Below, one piece after another: positions 5,482-60,180 of a stretch of 64,000 nucleotides of DNA. Both the position numbers and the translations under genes were made by a program. Source of the DNA: Verrucomicrobiota bacterium (GTDB taxonomy: Bacteria > Verrucomicrobiota > Verrucomicrobiia > Limisphaerales > JADLHS01); the NCBI GenBank assembly GCA_013140495.1, contig JABFSR010000061.1:17873-81872 (forward strand), written 5' to 3'. Below the pieces are notes generated by a model. It was not told the DNA's origin. It ran no database searches and saw only the letters and a list, made by a program, of their open reading frames with translations. How positions within the stretch are numbered: the first letter of the stretch is position 1; every line of letters begins with the position of its first letter.

Positions 5482-5543
5482 TTTTGAACTCTGAAACTCT
5501 ATGCCATCGGCAACTGAAGCCAAGCGGATTGATAAAAGAAAAA

Positions 5544-5566
5544 AGCCGAAACCATGTGTTTCGGCT
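5544..5566 (-). terminator. rho-independent terminator closing the rrn operon (bidirectional shape)
   Basis: 9-bp stem agccgaaac/gtttcggct with a 5-nt loop. It is flanked by an A-run on one side and a T-run on the other, immediately 3' of the 5S rRNA on the minus strand. Confidence 0.7.
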
Positions 5567-5580
5567 TTTTAGTTAAAGAT

Positions 5581-5690
5581 TGGCGACGACCTACTCTCGC
5601 AGAACCTATAGGACTACTACCATCGGCCCTGCAGTGTTTGACGGCCGAGTTCGGAATGGGATCGGGTCGGACCACTGCGGTATTGTCACC
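5581..5690 (-). rRNA. rrf: 5S rRNA
   Basis: The reverse complement reads ggtgacaataccgcagtgg...ccgaactcggccgtcaaac...gccgatggtagt...gcgagagtaggtcgtcgcca, which contains canonical 5S motifs. Confidence 0.9.
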
Positions 5691-5754
5691 AAAAAATTAT
5701 TAAAGAACATTCCCCGCCTAAGCGGGGCGACCGATCATGGGTTCGGCCATTCTC

Positions 5755-5771
5755 TGAAAACTACACATAGG
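5755..5771 (-). other. 3' arm of the 23S rRNA processing stem (partner 8766..8782)
   Basis: tgaaaactacacatagg is complementary to cctatgtgtagttgtca at 16 of 17 positions. The two arms flank the 23S gene. A second complementary pair is acaattcgt (about 5784) and acgaattgt (about 8738). Confidence 0.7.
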
Positions 5772-5829
5772 AACACTGGAACTACAATTCGTGAGTTAAA
5801 TTCGTAGTTTCTTCACGAGGAAGAAAGTT

Positions 5830-8703
<2,874 letters not shown>

Positions 8704-8776
8704 TATTTGAGAAACCGTCATTGCTGACGGATACTCGACGAATTGTAATTTTTGCCCAATATTTACCTATGTGTAG

Positions 8777-8789
8777 TTGTCAAAGAACG
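8777..8789 (-). promoter_or_regulatory. boxA-like antitermination motif in the spacer before 23S
   Basis: The minus strand reads cgttctttgacaa, against the E. coli boxA TGCTCTTTAACAA (10/13 match). Confidence 0.45.
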
Positions 8790-8858
8790 GGCCGAACCTC
8801 TGCAACAAAGTTGTTTACACCCTGCTGTTTTGCTTCGGTAAAATCGTTATACAGAAAG

Positions 8859-8935
8859 TGGTGGGCGTGACTGGAGTTGAACCAGTGACCCTGCGCTTAT
8901 CAAGCGCATGCTCTAACCAACTGAGCTACACGCCC
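8859..8935 (-). tRNA. tRNA-Ile (anticodon GAU), CCA encoded
   Basis: Reverse complement: gggcgtgtagctcagttggttagagcatgcgcttGATaagcgcagggtcactggttcaactccagtcacgcccacca. The cloverleaf folds by eye. Confidence 0.95.
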
Positions 8936-8943
8936 AACAAGGT

Positions 8944-9019
8944 TGGTGGAGCTGAGGAGAGTCGAACTCCTGACCTATAGCTTGCAAAGCTACCGCTCTA
9001 CCAACTGAGCTACAGCCCC
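8944..9019 (-). tRNA. tRNA-Ala (anticodon UGC), CCA encoded
   Basis: Reverse complement: ggggctgtagctcagttggtagagcggtagctttTGCaagctataggtcaggagttcgactctcctcagctccacca. The G3:U70 identity pair is present. Confidence 0.95.
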
Positions 9020-9024
9020 ATCTT

Positions 9025-9108
9025 GGATTCGAGTTCCGATTTGCGATTTTGGATTTCCAATCCGCAATCAGACATTCGTTGATCCGCAATTAAATCGGAG
9101 TTCGATTC
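9025..9108. repeat. heptad-periodic block in the 16S/tRNA-Ala spacer
   Basis: Six consecutive 7-nt units start with 'at': atttgcg attttgg atttcca atccgca atcagac attcgtt (9039-9080). They are flanked by partially complementary ggattcgagttccgatt and aatcggagttcgattc. Confidence 0.7.
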
Positions 9109-9144
9109 TTTCTACTTTCTGTTCAAAGAGCGTTGTTGCCCTTC

Positions 9145-9166
9145 AAAAACTGAATTGTGCGATAAG
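9145..9166 (-). other. 3' arm of the 16S rRNA processing stem (partner 10901..10922)
   Basis: Positions 9151-9166 are the exact reverse complement of 10901-10916 (cttatcgcacaattca). The two arms flank the 16S gene, as expected for an RNase III-type stem. Confidence 0.75.
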
Positions 9167-9235
9167 GTTTGAGCCAATCCACATCTTGCGATGTGTTCGA
9201 CCTCGGAAGTCTCATTTTTATCTGAGACCCGTGGT

Positions 9236-10797
<1,562 letters not shown>

Positions 10798-10917
10798 AAA
10801 AACGTTAGTTTAATTCCTGCCCGATGATTAATCGGGCGAATTGCAATTTAAAACTCTCCAAACCAAAGCTACTAACAGCCTTAGCTTGAAGGGGCTCTTA
10901 CTTATCGCACAATTCAA

Positions 10918-16053: not shown

Positions 16054-18735
16054 CTATTTTGAAGTCCTGAGTCCTGAACTCGCGAGCGCGCTTGGTGACT
16101 GTGGACTCTGGACTCTGGACTCTGGAATTCTCACGAGCTTTTGCACACGATGATTGAGAGCGTCTGCCACGTAAAGATTCTCGTGCGAATCAAAAGCGAT
16201 TCCCCACGGATTGCTGAACTCACCCGGCCCCGCTCCCGCCCTGCCAATGGTTTCGATCGGCTGACAATTTTTGTCGAAAACCTGGATGCGGCTGTTCCCA
16301 AACTCGCAAACGAAAATGTTTCCTGACTTGTCCACCTTGATGTCATACGGGTAACTCAATTCACCCAAACCCGAACCCGCCTTCCCAAACTCGCGAAGAA
16401 ACTTTCCGTCCGCCGAAAAAATCTGAATGCGATGATTGCACGAATCCGCCACATAGATTTTATCCTCGCTGTCCACACAGATGCCTTCCGCACGATTGAA
16501 CTCGCCCGGCCCATTGCCCGGACGACCGATCACCTGCAACACCGTCGCCTCGCGCTGCAGAGCACCGGTCTCCGACCCAGCGTGTTCCTGTGCCTTCGCC
16601 GACAAAGCCGTGTCCACCTTCGCATACGGCCAGTTCTTCTCGCTCGAAACTTCTGGAAGCGCGCCCGAACCCGACGAGCTTTGAACTTGAAACTTTGAAC
16701 TTGAAACTTTGAATCGTTGCACCCGCTCTGCCAGCGTGTATTCCGACACCAAGATTCCCCCGCGCGAATTCTGCGCAACTGATCTCGGCAACAGGAAACA
16801 GCCCTCATTCGTCCCGCGACAACCCCACTGAGCCACCAACTTACCGTCCGGGGTGAAATGGTTCACACGTTGATAATGAGGTTCGATCACGATGATGTTG
16901 CCGTCCCGATCATGCCCCATTCCTTTAGGCTTGCCCAAATCCGTTTGCGGCATTTGCCAGGTGAGCAAAAATTTCCCGTCCATTGAAAACTTTTGCACAC
17001 GCCCCGTCATGTCCACCACGTAAACATTTCCGTTCGTATCACACGCGACGGAGCGCGGCTTGTTGAATTCCCCGATGCCCACGCCGCGCGAACCGATGAC
17101 GATGGCGCGCTCAAAAAACTGACCTTGCAACGCGGCTTCGTGTTTTCCGTCTGATGGCGAACACCCGGGGCAAAAAATCGCAGTTCCAAGCACCAAAATA
17201 CAGAGAAGCACCAATCGCCTCACGCCATTCAACGCATCCGTCCCATAAGTCCCGACATTGGGAAGACAGGAACATTTTCCCCAGATCCATTTTGCCACGT
17301 TCCACGCCACCAACGGGAACACCGCCAACCCCAGCAGCGCCAGGCAAAGCGCATTCACCTGTGCCGCGTAGCCGTAATGCAGCAGATTGAATATTTTCAG
17401 CGCCAAGGTTTCGCCGCCGGGCGGTTGAACAATCACAATGGATTCCACATCCCACAGGCCCAGCAGATAGACCACATACCACGCTGCGAACATCTGCGGT
17501 GCAATCTGTGGCCAGATGACGAAGCGAAACATCTGCCACCGCGCCGCGCCTTCCAACCTGGCGGCGTCGGTTAAATCTTTGTCCACGCCTGCGACTGCGT
17601 GTCGCGCCGCCGTCCAAGCCAGCGCAAAATAGCGAATCACCAGCGCGAGCAGCACAATACCAGCGCTCTGATAAAACGCCGCCAACACGGGGCGATTGAA
17701 AACCTTGATGAGTGCTATACCGATGAGCACGCCCGGAATGAAGAACGGCAACCAAACGAGACTTAAACGCAGAGACGCAGAGAACGCGGAGAGCCACAAA
17801 GGTGAAAGACTTCTCTGCGTTTTCTCTGCGCCCTTTGCGTCTCTGCGTTGGAGGAAGCTTGTCGATAATACAAGCGCCGCCCCAATGACCACCGTCGCCG
17901 CCAGCGCCGCGAACCAAAACGAATTCCAGATCGTGCCGGTGCTGGCATCAATCGCGCCCGGGAGTTCGGCCCATGTTCGTTGCACGAAAACGATCTGCCC
18001 GAGCGGCAAACCGACAGATAGAACGCAAAGCAGTGTTGCCAACACGCCACTGCCGATTCGCCACGTTGAACCTAGTTGGCGACGAAAGACGCTGGCCGCC
18101 ACCGCGCCTTGAATTCGTGGCCACGCCACCGACCGACGCGTCGCCCACGCGAGCAAAAGCACTGGCGCAATCACCAGCGGCACGCTCAAGCGCAGCGCGG
18201 TCAGTGTGTCGAACTTGGTGTTGAACTGAACCCACATCTCGTCCGGCAGAACTTTGGTTTGCAGGATCGCCGGCACGGCAAAATTGTTCAGCGCGAGCAC
18301 GAACGTCAGTACCGCCGCCAGCGCCAGTTCACCTTTGGCGGCGGGAACAAGCAACCAGCGCAACAGAGAGAAGCCCGTCATCGCTGGTTCGCATTCAAGC
18401 TGTGCGGCTTCCAAACGCCGCCATGCCGCGAGTGCTGCGAACGATGTGATCGGCCATAGCAGCAGTGCCAAAATCCAGATCGTTCCGCCGAGCGAATAAA
18501 TCTTCAGCGGCAACCAGGCGCGTAGCACACCGGTTTCGCCCAGCAAACTGATCCAACAATTCGTAACGAGAAACGGCGGCAATGCCAATGCCACGACTGC
18601 CAGCGCGAGGAAAACATTTCGCCAGCGCGCCTCCAGCGTCGCCAGCCACAGCGCCGCCACGAGGCCAAAACCCACCGCCAGCGCCGTGGTCGTTCCGGCG
18701 AGCAGTAGGCTGTTCTGGAGCAACGGCCAGTTCAC
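16054..18735 (-). CDS. two-domain ABC importer permease (iron(III)/FbpB-like) fused in frame to an NHL-repeat beta-propeller
   Basis: Track ORF 16054..18798. The start is moved to GTG 18735, which overlaps the upstream stop (GTGA). It has two EAA-type loops (DAARLEGAARWQMFRFVIWPQIAP). After an internal lipoprotein-like signal (RRLVLLCILVLGTAIFCPGCS) come NHL blades (GEFNKPRSVACDTNGNVYVVD, GEFNRAEGICVDSEDKIYVAD, ...). Confidence 0.8.
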   Translation of the reverse strand: MNWPLLQNSLLLAGTTTALAVGFGLVAALWLATLEARWRNVFLALAVVALALPPFLVTNCWISLLGETGVLRAWLPLKIYSLGGTIWILALLLWPITSFAALAAWRRLEAAQLECEPAMTGFSLLRWLLVPAAKGELALAAVLTFVLALNNFAVPAILQTKVLPDEMWVQFNTKFDTLTALRLSVPLVIAPVLLLAWATRRSVAWPRIQGAVAASVFRRQLGSTWRIGSGVLATLLCVLSVGLPLGQIVFVQRTWAELPGAIDASTGTIWNSFWFAALAATVVIGAALVLSTSFLQRRDAKGAEKTQRSLSPLWLSAFSASLRLSLVWLPFFIPGVLIGIALIKVFNRPVLAAFYQSAGIVLLALVIRYFALAWTAARHAVAGVDKDLTDAARLEGAARWQMFRFVIWPQIAPQMFAAWYVVYLLGLWDVESIVIVQPPGGETLALKIFNLLHYGYAAQVNALCLALLGLAVFPLVAWNVAKWIWGKCSCLPNVGTYGTDALNGVRRLVLLCILVLGTAIFCPGCSPSDGKHEAALQGQFFERAIVIGSRGVGIGEFNKPRSVACDTNGNVYVVDMTGRVQKFSMDGKFLLTWQMPQTDLGKPKGMGHDRDGNIIVIEPHYQRVNHFTPDGKLVAQWGCRGTNEGCFLLPRSVAQNSRGGILVSEYTLAERVQRFKVSSSKFQVQSSSGSGALPEVSSEKNWPYAKVDTALSAKAQEHAGSETGALQREATVLQVIGRPGNGPGEFNRAEGICVDSEDKIYVADSCNHRIQIFSADGKFLREFGKAGSGLGELSYPYDIKVDKSGNIFVCEFGNSRIQVFDKNCQPIETIGRAGAGPGEFSNPWGIAFDSHENLYVADALNHRVQKLVRIPESRVQSPQSPSALASSGLRTSK
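16063..16126. repeat. inverted pair of tandem heptamer blocks
   Basis: (agtcctg)x2 at 16063-16077, then a spacer containing the palindrome ctcgcgag, then gactgtg plus (gactctg)x3 at 16097-16124. The blocks are complementary at 6 of 7 positions per unit. Confidence 0.85.
16560..16714. repeat. composite repeat inside the NHL coding region (R1 half-site plus tandem heptamers)
   Basis: gagcaccggtctccgacccagcgtgtt (16560-16586) matches 22701-22727 at 22 of 27 positions. Five heptamers tttgaac ttgaaac tttgaac ttgaaac tttgaat lie at 16680-16714. Confidence 0.75.
17766..17849. repeat. REP-like palindrome (ACGCAGAGACGCA family) inside the permease coding region
   Basis: aacgcagagacgca at 17766-17779 is the exact reverse complement of 17836-17849. 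The inner arms are imperfect. It is related to acgcaaagacgcaaag at 24725-24759. Confidence 0.8.
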
Positions 18736-19841
18736 CGCAGAAAAATTTCGTTCAATTGTTTGGTGGTCGTTTCCAGATCGCGGAGCAACGCATCCCAATC
18801 GGGTTGTCGGAGGGCGGAGCGCTGCGACGCTCCGGCTTCCGAGGTTGGGCCTCGCAGCGCTCCACCCTCCGAAGATTCCAGCGCTTTGGCTTGAACCAGT
18901 TTTTCTGCCACCTCGCGGCGCTGAAGGTAATCAAACAACTTCTGGGCGTTGGTCGGATGCGGCGCGTTGCGGATCACTCCCACCGTGTTCGGAATCAAAA
19001 GCTGCTCCTCACTGATCGGCAACATCGCCACCGGCGCTCCCTCCCGTTGGCCGGCGAAAATATCATCCGAGTCTGTCAAACCAATCCACGCTTCACCGCG
19101 AGCGACCTGTTTCACGACGACGGAGTTTCCGTCCACAATGAACGGCTTGTTCGCCGCCACGGCGCGACACCAAGCGAGCCAACGCTCCTCGCCCCAGAGT
19201 TGGCGCAGCGCGTGGAAGTGCGTGGCCGTTGTGCCGAATTGCGGGAAGGCCAGCGCGACTTTGCCGCGCCAGATTTCATTCGTGAGTTCGAGTAGGGATG
19301 TTGGAGCGCCGGCCTCCGGCACGGCGCGTTTTGGTAGCGTGGTTTCATCGAGCCGTGCCGGAGGCCGGCGCTCCGAAACCAAGTTCGTGTTGATGACGAT
19401 GCGGCGGCTGCGATAGCCGAAGGCGGCCCAGCCGTTGGTTTCGCGGAAGACGTTTTGCGCGGCGAGTTGGCGCGTGCGCATCTCTTCGTTGCCCCAGAAC
19501 ACGTCGCACTGCGGATGACTTCGCTCGGCGAGTAAACGATTCGCCAGTCCGACAGTCTTCACTGCTTCACTGTCATAAACGGCTTTGACCTTGATGCCGG
19601 TTTCCTTCTCGAACTCGCGCAGAATCGGCTCGGCATAGACTTGGTCTTGCGCGGCGTAAATGACCACCTGTTCGTTCAAAGTTGATTTCCTACAACTGAA
19701 ACCTCCGAGAAGCAGGGCAATCGAAACTGCGACAAGCCCGATGAACAGAAACGGATCGAAGTGCGCCACCATGCGAAAGAATCGCCAGAAGTTTTCCTTG
19801 GGATCGTAACTCTCCTTTCGTTTGTCGTTGGTCTTGCTCAT
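18732..19841 (-). CDS. ABC transporter substrate-binding protein (iron(III)/FbpA-AfuA-like)
   Basis: Track ORF 18732..19871, with the start moved to ATG 19841 (ATGA overlap with the upstream stop). It has an N-terminal TM/signal segment, then VVIYAAQDQVYAEPILREFEKETGIKVKAVYDSEA...DVFWGNEE. Confidence 0.8.
   Translation of the reverse strand: MSKTNDKRKESYDPKENFWRFFRMVAHFDPFLFIGLVAVSIALLLGGFSCRKSTLNEQVVIYAAQDQVYAEPILREFEKETGIKVKAVYDSEAVKTVGLANRLLAERSHPQCDVFWGNEEMRTRQLAAQNVFRETNGWAAFGYRSRRIVINTNLVSERRPPARLDETTLPKRAVPEAGAPTSLLELTNEIWRGKVALAFPQFGTTATHFHALRQLWGEERWLAWCRAVAANKPFIVDGNSVVVKQVARGEAWIGLTDSDDIFAGQREGAPVAMLPISEEQLLIPNTVGVIRNAPHPTNAQKLFDYLQRREVAEKLVQAKALESSEGGALRGPTSEAGASQRSALRQPDWDALLRDLETTTKQLNEIFLR
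18808..18871. repeat. REP-like palindrome inside the SBP coding region
   Basis: The 20-nt arms cggagggcggagcgctgcga and tcgcagcgctccaccctccg are complementary with one mismatch. The spacer is 24 nt. Confidence 0.85.
19303..19374. repeat. REP-like palindrome (GGAGCGCCGG family) inside the SBP coding region
   Basis: Perfect 22-bp inverted repeat: ggagcgccggcctccggcacgg (19303-19324) and ccgtgccggaggccggcgctcc (19353-19374). The spacer is 28 nt, so the element totals 72 nt, or 24 codons. Confidence 0.9.
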
Positions 19842-22699: not shown

Positions 22700-22771
22700 G
22701 GAGCGCCGATCTCTGATCCGGCGTGTTGGCATCTCGCTGCTGCAACGAGCCGGGTCGGAGACCGGCGCTCC
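22700..22771. repeat. REP-like palindrome (GGAGCGCCG family), intergenic
   Basis: The 23-nt arms ggagcgccgatctctgatccggc and gccgggtcggagaccggcgctcc are complementary at 20 of 23 positions, and all three mismatches are transitions. The spacer is 26 nt. Confidence 0.85.
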
Positions 22772-24724: not shown

Positions 24725-24850
24725 AAAACGCAAAGACGCAAAGGGGCAAAGACGCAAAGTCAGAGGAATGGATGTCAGGGGAATGGGGAGGCAGAATTCT
24801 TCCGGCTTGGTCTTCATTCCTCTGACAATCATTCCCCTGACTTGATTCCC
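24725..24850. repeat. composite REP-like element
   Basis: aaaacgcaaagacgcaaaggggcaaagacgcaaag is followed by an inverted pair of 12-mers: gtcagaggaatg / gtcaggggaatg (24759-24785) against cattcctctgac / cattcccctgac (24815-24841). Confidence 0.85.
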
Positions 24851-58879: not shown

Positions 58880-60180
58880 CTGTCTGGCCTCCGCTTCCTG
58901 GTTCTCGTCGCACCTCTCCGCTCCACAACTTTCCTGGTGTTCGGCGACGCAGTCATAAGGCTCTCAATCCGGGCGCGGTCTTTTTCGAGGAACGTGCGCA
59001 GTTGCTCGGCAGAAGGCAGGGCGACAAGGTAACGGGAAACAAAGAGCTTGTTGCTCAGTCCTGCCGTCGCAAACTCGACGCCCACGCGGTCTCGCTCACT
59101 GCACAAAATGATGCCAATGGGCGGAAGGTCGCCGTCTTCAACAGCATTCGTCTTCCACCAGTTGAGGTAAAAATTCATCTGCCCCGCGTCGCCATGCTGG
59201 AAGGCGCGGATTTTCAAATCAATCAGCACATGGCAGCGCAGTCGCCGGTGGTAGAATACGAGGTCAATGTAGTCGTGTTTGCCGCCGACGGTGATGCGCC
59301 GCTGGCGTGCCTCGAAGCAAAAACCTTCGCCGAGTTCGAGGAGGAAGTTCTGGAGATGATCGAGCAACGCGCGTTCAAGTTCGGATTCGCGATACTCCGG
59401 ACGCTCCGCGAGACCGGTGAACTCCAGTACATACGGATCGCGGATCAGGTCGCTGATGGTCTCCCGAGTTTCCTGAGAGCGGGCACGCTGGATGACGGCG
59501 GCCTTGTTTTTCGACAACCCGGTGCGTTCGTAAAGCAGCGAGCCAATCTGCCGCTGAAGCTGGCGCACCGACCAGTTCCCCTTGAGACATTCGTTTTCGT
59601 AGAAGGCGCGCTTCCACGGATCATCGAGGCGGGTGAGTTCCTGAAGTTTGCTCCACGAAAACTGAAGCAGGACTTGCGGCGAGAACGGCGTCGGCAATTC
59701 GGGGGACACTGTCCCCCGAATTGGGAAGAGGGTTGCGGTCCGTGCAGATTCGACAGACGGCGTCCGTCGAATTGGAGGCAGGGCCAACGCGCTGGCAGAT
59801 TTGCGGGACGCTGTACCGCGAATCCCGGAGGTGAATTTCGTCATCAGGGTTGACGGAATTGAAGGCAACTTGAGTCGCGCGGCAAATTCGGGGGACAGTG
59901 TCCCCCGAATTTGCGGGTAGAGGAAATAAATGGCACGGCAGTCACGCAGTGTCCGTAAATCCAACCCCTTTGCCTTGCGCGCGGCCAGGTCTTCCGCCAC
60001 CCGCTCCAGCAGGCGGTCGCCATACCTCGCCCGGTCCTTTCCGTGTTGCTCGAACTCGACGAGGTAAGCGCCGACCAGCCAGTTTCGGACGACCAGTGAT
60101 TGATTCACCGCCGCCGCCGCCCGCCCTTGAAGCTGGGCGGTCGCGCTGTTGATCGCTTTGATGAGGTGTGCGTAATTCAT
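58876..60180 (-). CDS. YhcG/DUF1016-family PD-(D/E)XK nuclease domain protein
   Basis: Track [13 protein letters not shown]...[63 protein letters not shown] (D...D/E-x-K core). ATGA overlaps at both ends. Confidence 0.85.
59696..59722. repeat. 27-nt perfect hairpin inside the DUF1016 CDS
   Basis: aattcgggggac-act-gtcccccgaatt, a 12-bp stem with a 3-nt loop. It encodes [10 protein letters not shown]. Confidence 0.9.
59885..59911. repeat. second copy of the 27-nt hairpin inside the DUF1016 CDS
   Basis: aattcgggggac-agt-gtcccccgaatt, the exact reverse complement of 59696-59722. It encodes [10 protein letters not shown]. Confidence 0.9.

What the first reader, a model, noticed from the sequence alone, without database searches (positions are those of the whole stretch)
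18808..19374. Two REP-like palindromes inside the substrate-binding-protein gene, one a perfect 22-bp inverted repeat spanning exactly 24 codons
The element at 19303-19374 has perfect 22-bp arms and a 28-nt spacer. It encodes ...RRPPARLDETTLPKRAVPEAGAPTS..., which sits between the conserved NTNLV and LLELTNEIWRGKVA segments. As far as I recall the family, that linker is roughly 10 residues, so ~20 residues here look inserted.

The element at 18808-18871 has 20-nt arms with one mismatch. It encodes ...SSEGGALRGPTSEAGASQRSALRQ... near the C-terminus.

Together with the three elements in the adjacent permease-NHL gene, five repeat-derived segments lie in frame in one two-gene transporter unit. 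This is an unusual density of apparently tolerated or exapted insertions. The perfect arms suggest the insertions are recent or that the RNA or DNA hairpin is maintained by selection.
Basis: partly seen in the sequence, partly recalled or inferred. Interest (0 to 1): 0.6.

Follow-up and report, generated by a model that had tools for sequence, protein, structure and literature searches.

The report
In-frame REP palindromes in a transporter gene
Two short, very stable DNA palindromes of the bacterial "REP" repeat type sit in frame inside a working nutrient-binding-protein gene of a soil or freshwater verrucomicrobium, where they add two extra surface loops; this kind of insertion is already documented, but here the same few codons carry at least ten different repeat families in related genomes.

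Summary
Both palindromes are real. One is at 19303-19374, with perfect 22-nt arms and an RNA fold of -61 kcal/mol (z -9.4). The other is at 18807-18872, with 24-nt arms, one mismatch and -55.9 kcal/mol. Both lie in frame in the minus-strand FbpA/AfuA-type binding-protein gene 18732-19841.

They are derived insertions. About 200 more distant orthologues have short linkers at both sites. The gene is under strong purifying selection (dN/dS 0.04-0.13). A confident AlphaFold model (pLDDT 91.5) shows both inserts as lower-confidence loops.

The site-1 element is a doublet of inverted REP units from a low-copy dispersed family, with another copy at 22700-22771. In orthologues the same 3-codon window holds at least 10 other palindromic families, and site 2 holds three.

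The site-1 element does not look recent. Across 15-17 orthologous copies the loop has drifted like synonymous sites (54% vs 64.5% identity). The stem stays 93% paired, with compensatory changes and 97%-identical ends.

In-frame REP dimers encoding 20-30 residues are already described for another verrucomicrobium, Opitutus terrae, and for Rickettsia. This is therefore a new member of a known kind, with an unusually clear hot spot.

The parts
18732..19841 (-). Host gene: membrane-anchored or lipoprotein-type FbpA/AfuA-family substrate-binding protein, 369 aa, identical to NCBI NOS69520.1 from a Verrucomicrobia MAG.
   Evidence: Pfam SBP_bac_11, E 3e-14. Exact database match. AlphaFold model pLDDT 91.5. 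Foldseek hits to FbpA, HitA and AfuA with TM 0.71-0.77. dN/dS 0.04-0.13.
19303..19374 (-). Site-1 element (family A): a doublet of two inverted 26-nt REP-like units with a 20-nt spacer. It is translated as S-ERRPPARLDETTLPKRAVPEAGA-P, between a beta strand and the SLLEL helix.
   Evidence: for the structure. for presence or absence in orthologues. for stem covariation and conservation. Model pLDDT is 71-88 here against 96-97 in the flanks.
18807..18872 (-). Site-2 palindrome (type S2a): 66 nt, exactly 22 codons, SEGGALRGPTSEAGASQRSALR. It replaces the ancestral ATxxTDATTLK linker, starting 73 nt upstream of the first base of the stop codon.
   Evidence: Model pLDDT 56-78. No further copy in 1.42 Mb.
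16054..18735 (-). Downstream gene: a fusion of an ABC permease with two transmembrane modules and an NHL beta-propeller. Its likely GTG start overlaps the binding-protein stop codon (GTGA).
   Evidence: Pfam BPD_transp_1 and NHL. Sequence reading. The orthologue in L119 starts MNWPLL at the same point.
17766..17849 (-). Palindromic element (AACGCAGAGACGCAGAG family) lying in frame in the linker between the two permease halves.
   Evidence: -50.6 kcal/mol. The same family sits at the same site in L001, L007 and L012. In orthologues this linker ranges from 8 to 129 residues and holds many other repeat families.
16540..16615 (-). Degenerate family-A-like remnant (HAGSETGALQREA) in a linker of the NHL region.
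   Evidence: Weak nhmmer hit, E 0.0035. L146 carries a full family-A-like element in frame in the corresponding linker.
22700..22771 (.). Intergenic copy of family A: 72 nt with the same termini, GGAGCGCCG...CGGCGCTCC. Its mid-stem and loop differ. It lies between two genes transcribed in the same direction (DUF58 and BatA-like).
   Evidence: 74.6 bits; -55.6 kcal/mol.

Best explanation
The two palindromes are REP-type repeat elements that were inserted into two short surface linkers of a functional FbpA/AfuA-type binding-protein gene. They are read through by the ribosome as extra loops.

**Element 1.** It is a doublet of two inverted 26-nt REP units (REPIN-like). Each unit has its own small internal stem. 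The family is dispersed but low in copy number.

**Why the elements persist.** They lie in loops that do not disturb the fold. They are GC-rich and stop-free in most frames, and the net length change is a multiple of three.

**Hot spots.** The same positions are hot spots in the whole clade. Many unrelated REP families occupy the same 2-3 codons in orthologues, and homologous recombination between lineages shuffles these alleles.

**Age of element 1.** It is old, not new. Its orthologous copies have kept the stem through conserved ends and compensated changes in the middle, while the loop drifted neutrally. Something acting on the nucleic-acid hairpin preserves it. Candidates are selection on the DNA or RNA structure, a protein that recognises its ends, or hairpin-templated repair.

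**Shown.** The structure, the frame, the derived state, the conservation pattern, the hot spots, the recombination and the intact fold.

**Inferred.** The insertion mechanism (probably a RAYT-type Y1 transposase acting on single-stranded hairpins), actual translation of the inserts, and the cause of stem maintenance.
For: **Structure and frame.**

**Derived state.**
- 86 of 143 loci are empty at site 1 and 128 of 138 at site 2.
- All the more distant homologues are empty.

**Functional host gene.**
- dN/dS is 0.04-0.13 at dS 0.66-0.99.
- None of 143 loci has a stop or frameshift at site 1.
- The AlphaFold model has pLDDT 91.5, with the inserts as lower-confidence loops.
- The fold matches FbpA-type proteins.

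**Dispersed family.** Covariance-model hits outside site 1 fall at three places:
- window 22700-22771, intergenic;
- L119 2231-2313, in the spacer between the binding-protein and permease genes;
- L146 2802-2871, in frame in the NHL linker.

**Hot spot.**
- At least 10 peptide or DNA families lie between the S-L and A-P codons.
- Three families occur at site 2.
- The permease linker behaves the same way.

**Stem maintenance.**
- 92.8% of cells are paired, and 8 pairs have changes on both sides.
- For percent of cells paired, cells changed on both sides and the covariation score, 0 of 500 shuffles reached the observed value; for the count of pairs changed on both sides it was 1 of 500.
- Identity by segment: outer 9 bp 97.0%, inner 7 bp 89.5%, middle 10 bp 67.2%, loop 54.3%, against 64.5% at flanking four-fold sites.
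- Third codon positions in the arms are 94.5% identical within subfamilies.
- Site-1 loops share ATGA...CAGAAA, unlike the loops of non-orthologous copies.

**Recombination.**
- L154 and L155 are about 70% identical at the 5' end and about 100% over the last 440 nt.
- L070 is a chimera of left and right arms.
- dS between the query and L156 is 0.38 on one side of site 1 and 0.71 on the other.

**Precedent.** Intragenic REP dimers encoding 20-30 residues are described, most numerous in Opitutus terrae (PMC3733652). RPEs are covered in PMC10969869.
Against: - Family A is rare: 3 extra copies in 1.42 Mb. No whole-genome census was possible, so mobility is inferred rather than seen.
- Element 2 has no other copy in the sampled DNA. 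Its orthologues have decayed stems. It may therefore not be a mobile repeat, and no force need be maintaining it.
- Subfamily arms are discrete types. The compensatory pattern could come from replacement by different family members rather than from stepwise change in place.
- No transposase was found in the window.
- Translation of the inserts rests on frame conservation, not on protein data.
- The closest relative with DNA is still at dS 0.4-0.7. No within-species presence/absence polymorphism was seen.
Confidence: 0.75

Rival explanations
1. The elements are young insertions. Element 1 has perfect arms simply because it arrived recently and has not yet mutated. The similar elements in orthologues would be independent, targeted insertions of still-active subfamilies.
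For: - The 22-nt arms are perfect.
- The closest relatives carry other families at site 1: P0044 at 95% backbone identity, P0242/L156 at about 92% nt identity.
- Arm types are discrete.
Against: - Site-1 copies share the same boundaries and a homologous loop. That loop has diverged as much as synonymous sites.
- The family is too rare for repeated chance hits on one nucleotide.
- Copies elsewhere have unrelated loops.
Confidence: 0.15
2. The hairpins have been taken over for a function in the operon. Possible roles are barriers to 3'-to-5' mRNA decay that raise binding-protein output relative to the permease (as with the malE-malF REP of E. coli), or ribosome pause sites at the boundary between the two lobes. 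Selection for that function would keep the stems.
For: - The stem is conserved at the nucleotide level, beyond what the protein requires.
- The folds are extremely stable.
- Element 2 lies 73-138 nt before the stop codon and the coupled permease start.
- L119 has a family-A element exactly in the spacer between the binding-protein and permease genes.
- Nearly every allele of the NTNFV class carries some palindrome at site 1.
Against: - The element is absent from most orthologues, which manage without it.
- Element 2 stems decay in relatives.
- Single-REP remnants and empty alleles exist.
- There are no expression data.
- The malE-malF comparison rests on general knowledge and was not tested here.
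Confidence: 0.15
3. Element 2, and possibly element 1, arose locally rather than by insertion of a mobile repeat. Template switching on a quasi-palindrome could have made an inverted duplication of nearby sequence, which later conversion perfected.
For: - No other S2a or S2c copy occurs in 1.42 Mb.
- S2a and S2c share the outer termini TCGGAGGG...CCCTCCGA but have different interiors.
- The ancestral linker was replaced, not simply split.
- The query's left arm differs from its orthologues at exactly the positions that restore pairing.
Against: - Neither arm is recognisably derived from the ancestral linker or the flanks (inspection).
- Element 1 clearly belongs to a dispersed family.
- Other families at site 2, such as the RRRGDESQ...PHVVSY type, resemble GTAG REP dimers found elsewhere.
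Confidence: 0.12
4. The gene is a decaying pseudogene or a mis-annotated open frame, and the palindromes simply lie in dead sequence.
For: One close relative, L156, has an in-frame TAG inside its site-1 element and a fragmented operon.
Against: - dN/dS is 0.04-0.13.
- More than 240 intact homologues were found.
- The fold model is confident.
- None of 143 loci is disrupted at site 1.
- The many frameshifts across the L156 contig look like assembly error.
Confidence: 0.03

Closest known systems
Intragenic REP singletons and dimers (GTAG/CGTC REP superfamilies; Di Nocera, De Gregorio and Rocco 2013, PMC3733652), especially those of the verrucomicrobium Opitutus terrae
   Same: - Short GC-rich palindromic units are paired in inverted orientation with 20-100 nt spacers.
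- They lie in frame inside genes for known proteins.
- Dimers encode 20-30 residues (for example, 24-residue inserts in Oter_0490 and Oter_2037).
- They are argued to sit in flexible linkers or loops.
- The host phylum is the same.
- Families E, B and C at the same site in orthologues carry GTAG...CTAC ends.
   Different: - The two elements in the window do not carry the defining GTAG or CGTC end tag. Their ends are (TC)GGAG...CTCC(GA).
- Copy number is low.
- The 2013 survey did not report one codon window occupied by many families across orthologues, nor nucleotide-level stem conservation inside a gene.
Rickettsia palindromic elements (RPE; Ogata et al. 2000, 2002, as summarised in PMC10969869 and PMC3733652)
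   Same: Palindromic repeats inserted in frame in many unrelated functional genes. They are translated, compatible with the protein fold, and shared at the same site by orthologues.
   Different: RPE-1 is about 100-150 bp and confined to Rickettsia. There is no sequence relationship. RPEs are described as one family per site, not as a multi-family hot spot.
REPINs mobilised by RAYT transposases (REP doublets forming hairpins; cited through PMC3733652)
   Same: Two inverted REPs form one long hairpin. The family is dispersed. A Y1_Tnp (IS200-like) domain exists in a related genome, L018.
   Different: No RAYT was found next to these elements or anywhere in the window. REPINs are typically extragenic and more abundant.
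The malE-malF intercistronic REP of E. coli (mRNA stabiliser in a binding-protein/permease operon; general knowledge, not tested here)
   Same: A stable hairpin lies at the 3' side of the binding-protein cistron of an ABC operon. L119 has a family-A copy in exactly that spacer.
   Different: Here the hairpins are inside the coding sequence, where translation would melt them. No expression evidence exists.

Membership tests
REP / REP doublet (REPIN-like) | Short imperfect palindrome unit (20-40 nt) able to form a stem-loop, often paired with an inverted partner 20-100 nt away. | tested here: met
   Element 1 has two 26-nt arms and a 20-nt spacer. The arms contain an internal small stem, for example CCGATC-TCCT-GATCGG in L002 and L003, and CCGGCC-TCC-GGC(A)CGG in the query (sequence reading). 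Single-unit remnants of another family, such as AAGRMPAAT, sit at the same site.
REP / REP doublet (REPIN-like) | Dispersed in multiple copies at unrelated loci of the genome. | tested here: inconclusive
   Element 1: three non-orthologous copies in 1.42 Mb, one of them in the window. It is therefore dispersed but rare. Element 2: no other copy. A whole-genome census was not possible.
GTAG- or CGTC-tagged REP superfamilies (PMC3733652) | A GTAG or CGTC tetranucleotide at one end of the unit. | tested here: not met
   The window elements end in (TC)GGAGCGCC...GGCGCTCC and TCGGAGGG...CCCTCCGA. Families B, C and E at the same site in orthologues do start GGTAG... and end ...CTAC(C).
RAYT-mobilised REP (REPtron association) | A Y1 (IS200-like) transposase gene flanked by the same REP in the same genome. 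| not testable with these tools
   Only 64 kb of this genome is available. A tblastn search with a RayT sequence recalled from memory found nothing in the window. A Y1_Tnp domain exists in the related L018, but with other flanking repeats.
MITE | Terminal inverted repeats plus a direct target-site duplication. | tested here: not met
   The flanks of element 1 are GTTTC|G...CC|AACA, and of element 2 GAATCT|...|CAACCC. No direct repeat flanks either. The whole element is one hairpin, not TIRs around a core.
Rickettsia palindromic elements | In-frame palindromic insert in a functional gene, at a position compatible with the fold. | tested here: met
   This shows the window elements work like RPEs. 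Membership fails on host taxon, length (66-72 nt against about 100-150) and the lack of any sequence relationship.
FbpA/AfuA-type (cluster D) substrate-binding protein, the host gene | Two-lobe class II periplasmic binding-protein fold with sequence similarity to Fe3+/sugar-phosphate binding proteins. | tested here: met
   Pfam SBP_bac_11, SBP_bac_8, SBP_bac_6 and SBP_bac_1. PDB profile hit to 7w3w, E 3e-13. Foldseek TM 0.71-0.77 to FbpA, HitA, FutA and AfuA. The ligand was not determined.

The most novel reading that the evidence does not exclude
Site 1 may be a maintained 'hairpin slot'. One possibility is that the cell benefits from having some very stable hairpin at the boundary between the two lobes of this transcript or gene, so that any REP family can fill the slot and its stem is then kept by selection. 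The other is that REP elements home to resident hairpins, so that one family succeeds another at a fixed codon while the protein merely tolerates the changing loop. Either would make this gene a natural system for studying REP target choice and hairpin selection inside coding sequence.
Probability: 0.15. Interest if true: 0.7.

Novelty: new member of a known kind. Interest (0 to 1): 0.42.

Why it matters
This case adds well-resolved evidence that short palindromic repeats can live inside essential-looking genes by occupying permissive protein loops. The orthologue series, more than 250 sequences with at least 10 families at one 3-codon window, works as a natural insertion-tolerance map for FbpA-type binding proteins.

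The contrast between a neutrally drifting loop and a compensated, end-conserved stem inside a translated region is the most useful part. It separates constraint on the nucleic acid from constraint on the protein. It also makes a question testable: what preserves REP hairpins, whether a binding protein, RNA function or templated repair.

On the practical side, these elements break MAG assemblies and inflate 'hypothetical' peptide motifs in verrucomicrobial annotations.

Tried and rejected
1. **Shallow AlphaFold run.** The first run used 60 close homologues and gave pLDDT 45, so it was unusable. It was redone with 116 more diverse sequences.
2. **Multiples of three.** Hairpins inside open frames show no bias to lengths divisible by three: 33:24:23, P = 0.32.
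3. **Stop-free frames.** The elements are only modestly richer in open frames than shuffles, 3.3 against 2.5 of 6.
4. **Insert family against gene phylogeny.** There is no correlation: 0.868 vs 0.870 amino-acid identity, and 0.810 vs 0.813 nucleotide identity in the flanks. I first read this as very fast turnover. I then attributed it at least partly to mosaic recombination and to the large divergence of all available relatives (dS 0.4-1.0).
5. **TTTGTT as part of the elements or a shared target.** This idea was rejected. Eighteen family-E copies elsewhere have unrelated flanks, and empty alleles of the LV class exist.
6. **nhmmer searches with each family.** They found few extra copies, except for family E (18) and family D (6).
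7. **Rfam.** No family matches the hairpins.
8. **Target-site duplications.** None were seen.
9. **DNA of the nearest backbone relative, P0044.** It is not available.
10. **Ogata 2002.** The paper is not held in the library.
11. **Within-subfamily arm conservation.** This measure is partly circular, because subfamilies were defined by their arms. I therefore repeated it over all pairs.
Full report
**1. Observation**

The minus-strand ORF 18732-19841 encodes a 369-residue protein. It has an N-terminal membrane anchor or lipobox-like signal. Its domain matches SBP_bac_11, SBP_bac_8, SBP_bac_6 and SBP_bac_1. The sequence is identical to NOS69520.1, 'extracellular solute-binding protein', from a Verrucomicrobia MAG contig of 87 kb.

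Two inverted repeats lie inside it.
- **19303-19374.** Perfect 22-nt arms, extending to 26 nt at 96% complementarity.
- **18807-18872.** 24-nt arms at 92% complementarity.

As RNA they fold at -61 and -55.9 kcal/mol, with z -9.4 and -6.9.

The first element is 72 nt long but one base out of codon register. The second is exactly 22 codons.

The next gene on the same strand is a permease-NHL fusion. Its probable GTG start overlaps the binding-protein stop codon. It carries another strong palindrome at 17766-17849 and weaker, degenerate ones.

**2. The segments are derived insertions in a working gene**

I collected 240 homologous proteins and 156 loci with DNA, all from Pedosphaerales/Limisphaerales-type Verrucomicrobiota.

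- At site 1, the more distant homologues uniformly read NTN-[RK]LSLA[SD]AP[RKH]-SLLELTN.
- At site 2, they read ALEG-xSxxEVxxPTLK-xDW.
- In a set extracted with flanking anchors and blind to gene calls, 86 of 143 loci are empty at site 1 and 128 of 138 at site 2.
- None of the 143 has a stop or a frameshift at site 1.
- The query has gained a net 19 residues at site 1. Ancestral L-A-D was lost, and the A-P codons coincide with the element's right end.
- It has gained a net 11-12 residues at site 2, where the ancestral linker is largely replaced.
- Backbone dN/dS against eight relatives is 0.04-0.13 at dS 0.66-0.99.

An AlphaFold model built on a diverse alignment has pLDDT 91.5 and pTM 0.88.
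- Insert 1 (model residues 106-130) scores 71-88.
- Insert 2 (model residues 274-295) scores 56-78.
- Flanking segments score 96-97.

The fold matches FbpA, HitA, FutA and AfuA structures with TM 0.71-0.77 (sequence-profile hit to 7w3w). Insert 1 lies between the long strand ending in VINTN and the SLLEL helix.

**3. What the elements are**

*Element 1* has conserved ends, GGAGCGCCG...CGGCGCTCC. Each 26-nt arm contains its own small stem. Element 1 is therefore a doublet of inverted REP-like units.

A covariance model built on it finds three copies at unrelated places in 1.42 Mb:
- an intergenic one in the window, at 22700-22771;
- one in the spacer between the binding-protein and permease genes of L119;
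- one in frame in the NHL linker of L146.

A faint remnant also lies at window 16540-16615. The family is thus dispersed but rare.

*Element 2* (S2a) shares its outer ends, TCGGAGGG...CCCTCCGA, with a second type (S2c) found at the same site in other genomes. Neither type was seen anywhere else.

No Rfam family matches either element.

**4. Hot spots**

Orthologues carry many other palindromic families at site 1, between the S-L and A-P codons. They are recognisable as peptides and, where DNA is available, as hairpins with distinct ends:

| Family | Peptide | DNA ends |
|---|---|---|
| B | GRAELPLGQDAQQRVPT | GGTAGGG... |
| C | VGTRSTASQ...NPSLP | GGTAGGGACGCG... |
| D | AGILPAVE...AGRMPAAT | doublet of GCGGCAGGCA-AGA-TGCCTGCCGC units; single-unit remnants also occur |
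| E | GSRRGNEADQ...PPHVGGY | GGTAGCCGCCGA...TCGGCGGCTAC |
| F | GSAPASGAVSRAPRE... | GGGGAGCGCGCCC... |
| G | PSPGLRPPSPR... | not examined (no DNA) |
| H | EPTPSPSQE...GQGWV | AACCCACCCC... |

Several further types occur.

- Family E is a bona fide GTAG-ended dispersed REP dimer, with 18 copies in 1.03 Mb and unrelated flanks.
- Site 2 holds three types.
- The cytoplasmic linker between the two permease halves ranges from 8 to 129 residues and is likewise filled with different repeat families.
- Of 181 strong hairpins in 1.03 Mb of these genomes, 80 lie within open frames of at least 250 codons.
- Several MAG contigs end inside the site-1 element: L060, L062, L063 and L066.

**5. Age and maintenance of element 1**

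I analysed 17 orthologous site-1 copies.
- 92.8% of stem cells are paired.
- Eight pairs show changes on both sides.
- No shuffle of 500 reached the observed percent of cells paired, number of cells changed on both sides, or covariation score. One shuffle of 500 reached the count of pairs changed on both sides (9-sequence version).

Over all pairs among 15 of these copies, identity by segment is as follows:

| Segment | Identity |
|---|---|
| Outer 9 bp of each arm | 97.0% |
| Inner 7 bp | 89.5% |
| Middle 10 bp | 67.2% |
| Loop | 54.3% |
| Four-fold-degenerate sites in the 60 flanking codons on each side | 64.5% |

Third codon positions within the arms are as conserved as first and second positions: 94.5% against 96.1% within subfamilies. 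Protein-level selection therefore cannot explain the pattern.

The loops of the site-1 copies are recognisably homologous to each other (ATGA...CAGAAA) and unlike the loops of copies elsewhere.

The simplest reading is a single old insertion, or a few. Its loop has drifted neutrally while its stem has been preserved. The perfect arms in the window are therefore not evidence of youth.

The arm variants fall into discrete types. Replacement or conversion by other family members cannot be excluded without whole genomes.

Element 2 behaves differently. Its orthologous copies have 4-6 stem mismatches, and only the query copy is nearly perfect.

**6. Why insert type does not follow the gene tree**

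Insert family is uncorrelated with backbone similarity. The nearest relatives carry other families:
- P0044, at 95% backbone identity, has family B and an empty site 2.
- P0242/L156, at about 92% nucleotide identity, has family D and an empty site 2.

Part of the explanation is recombination.
- L154 and L155 carry two different family-A subtypes. They are about 70% identical at the 5' end, about 93% in the middle, and essentially identical over the last 440 nt.
- L070 has a left arm of one subtype and a right arm of another.
- dS between the query and L156 is 0.38 upstream and 0.71 downstream of site 1.

All relatives with DNA are at dS of roughly 0.4 or more. The turnover rate therefore cannot be called fast.

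Alleles with B, C, E, F, G and H retain the ancestral S-L and A-P on either side. They look like separate insertions into an empty site, not replacements of A.

One observation remains unexplained: no empty allele of the NTNFV class was sampled among the close homologues.

**7. Comparison with what is known**

In-frame palindromic repeats in functional genes were first described as RPEs in Rickettsia (summarised in PMC10969869).

Di Nocera et al. 2013 (PMC3733652) surveyed REPs across prokaryotes.
- They noted that more than half of the inserts are dimers encoding 20-30 residues.
- They suggested that the inserts sit in flexible linkers or loops.

The present case fits that description. The two window elements lack the GTAG or CGTC tag, although families at the same site in orthologues have it.

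I did not find three things described elsewhere:
- the concentration of many families on one 3-codon window across orthologues;
- the evidence that alleles are shuffled by recombination;
- the quantitative contrast between a neutral loop and a compensated stem inside a coding region.

**8. Mechanism: shown and inferred**

*Shown:* the elements are hairpin-forming, in frame, derived and located in loops of an intact fold. Element 1 belongs to a dispersed family, and its stem is conserved at the nucleotide level.

*Inferred:*
- Insertion occurred by a REP/REPIN-type process. A Y1 transposase domain exists in a related genome, but none was found in the window.
- The segments are translated.
- Purifying selection elsewhere in the protein confines surviving insertions to these loops.
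- The stem is kept by selection on the DNA or RNA hairpin, by recognition of its conserved ends, or by templated repair.

A regulatory role in the operon is possible but untested. The hairpin lies close to the end of the binding-protein cistron, and L119 has a copy in the intercistronic spacer.

**9. Verdict**

- The finding is a new member of a known kind.
- It is of moderate interest, because it offers an unusually rich natural series for studying where REPs can live inside proteins and what preserves their hairpins.

Noticed in passing
L018 14417-18973 (-), MAG Verrucomicrobiia TGS_VER2: A 1518-residue DnaE (DNA polymerase III alpha) ORF carries, in frame between its finger and helix-hairpin-helix domains, an IS200-like Y1 transposase (RAYT-like) domain at residues 1056-1129. 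The domain is flanked by repeat-like peptides. A second repeat-derived segment lies near residues 345-415. A whole transposase unit appears to be read through inside an essential gene.
   Followed up: partly
L154 1014-2081 versus L155 331-1395: Two orthologous binding-protein genes are mosaic: about 70% identical over the first 200 nt, about 93% in the middle, and nearly 100% over the last 440 nt. This is clear recent homologous recombination between lineages that carry different subtypes of the site-1 element.
   Followed up: yes
window 17761-17850 and the corresponding linker in 68 loci: The cytoplasmic linker between the two halves of the permease ranges from 8 to 129 residues among orthologues. 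It is filled with many different repeat-derived peptides, such as RDAENAEKTQRS...SASLRL, RRKEAE...LLTSAAT and SDFGLRISDF. It is a second multi-family hot spot.
   Followed up: partly
L060, L062, L063 (contig starts) and L066 (contig end): MAG contigs break exactly inside the site-1 repeat. In one MAG (GL140_2_metabat_307_sub) the gene is split between two contigs there. These elements therefore fragment short-read assemblies.
   Followed up: no
L119 2231-2313: A family-A-type doublet (GGAGCGCCGACATTCTTG...CAAGAATGTCGGCGCTCC) lies in the spacer between the binding-protein stop and the permease start. This is the classical position of the malE-malF REP.
   Followed up: no
L156 2350-3750: The closest relative with DNA (about 92% nt identity) has a family-D doublet at site 1 with an in-frame TAG in its loop. 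It also has a 1-nt frameshift at site 2, and the whole operon is cut into short ORFs. This is either a poor assembly or a decaying operon.
   Followed up: partly
window 59695-59914: Two near-perfect 14-16-bp palindromes (AATTCGGGGGACA.TGTCCCCCGAATT) lie about 190 nt apart, each with a one-base centre. Together they form a 27-nt-arm inverted repeat, inside a 469-codon open frame on the minus strand.
   Followed up: no
window 24759-24841: Two interleaved hairpins of a GTCAGRGGAATGG...CCATTCCYCTGAC repeat family. Related copies occur in L003 and L066.
   Followed up: no
window 5578-10798 (-): A complete rRNA operon (16S, two tRNAs, 23S, 5S), with a terminator-like hairpin at 5540-5570.
   Followed up: no
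L003, L004, L006, L007, L035 and other loci (for example L006 6213-6239): A 27-nt perfect palindrome, CCCTCTCCCC-NTCCGAN-GGGGAGAGGG, recurs 13 times. It often lies inside long open frames, including a second site in the binding-protein gene and in the NHL region. A 195-nt MITE-like relative (CGCCCTCACCCCGGCCCTCTCCCC...) sits just downstream of the binding-protein gene in several loci.
   Followed up: no
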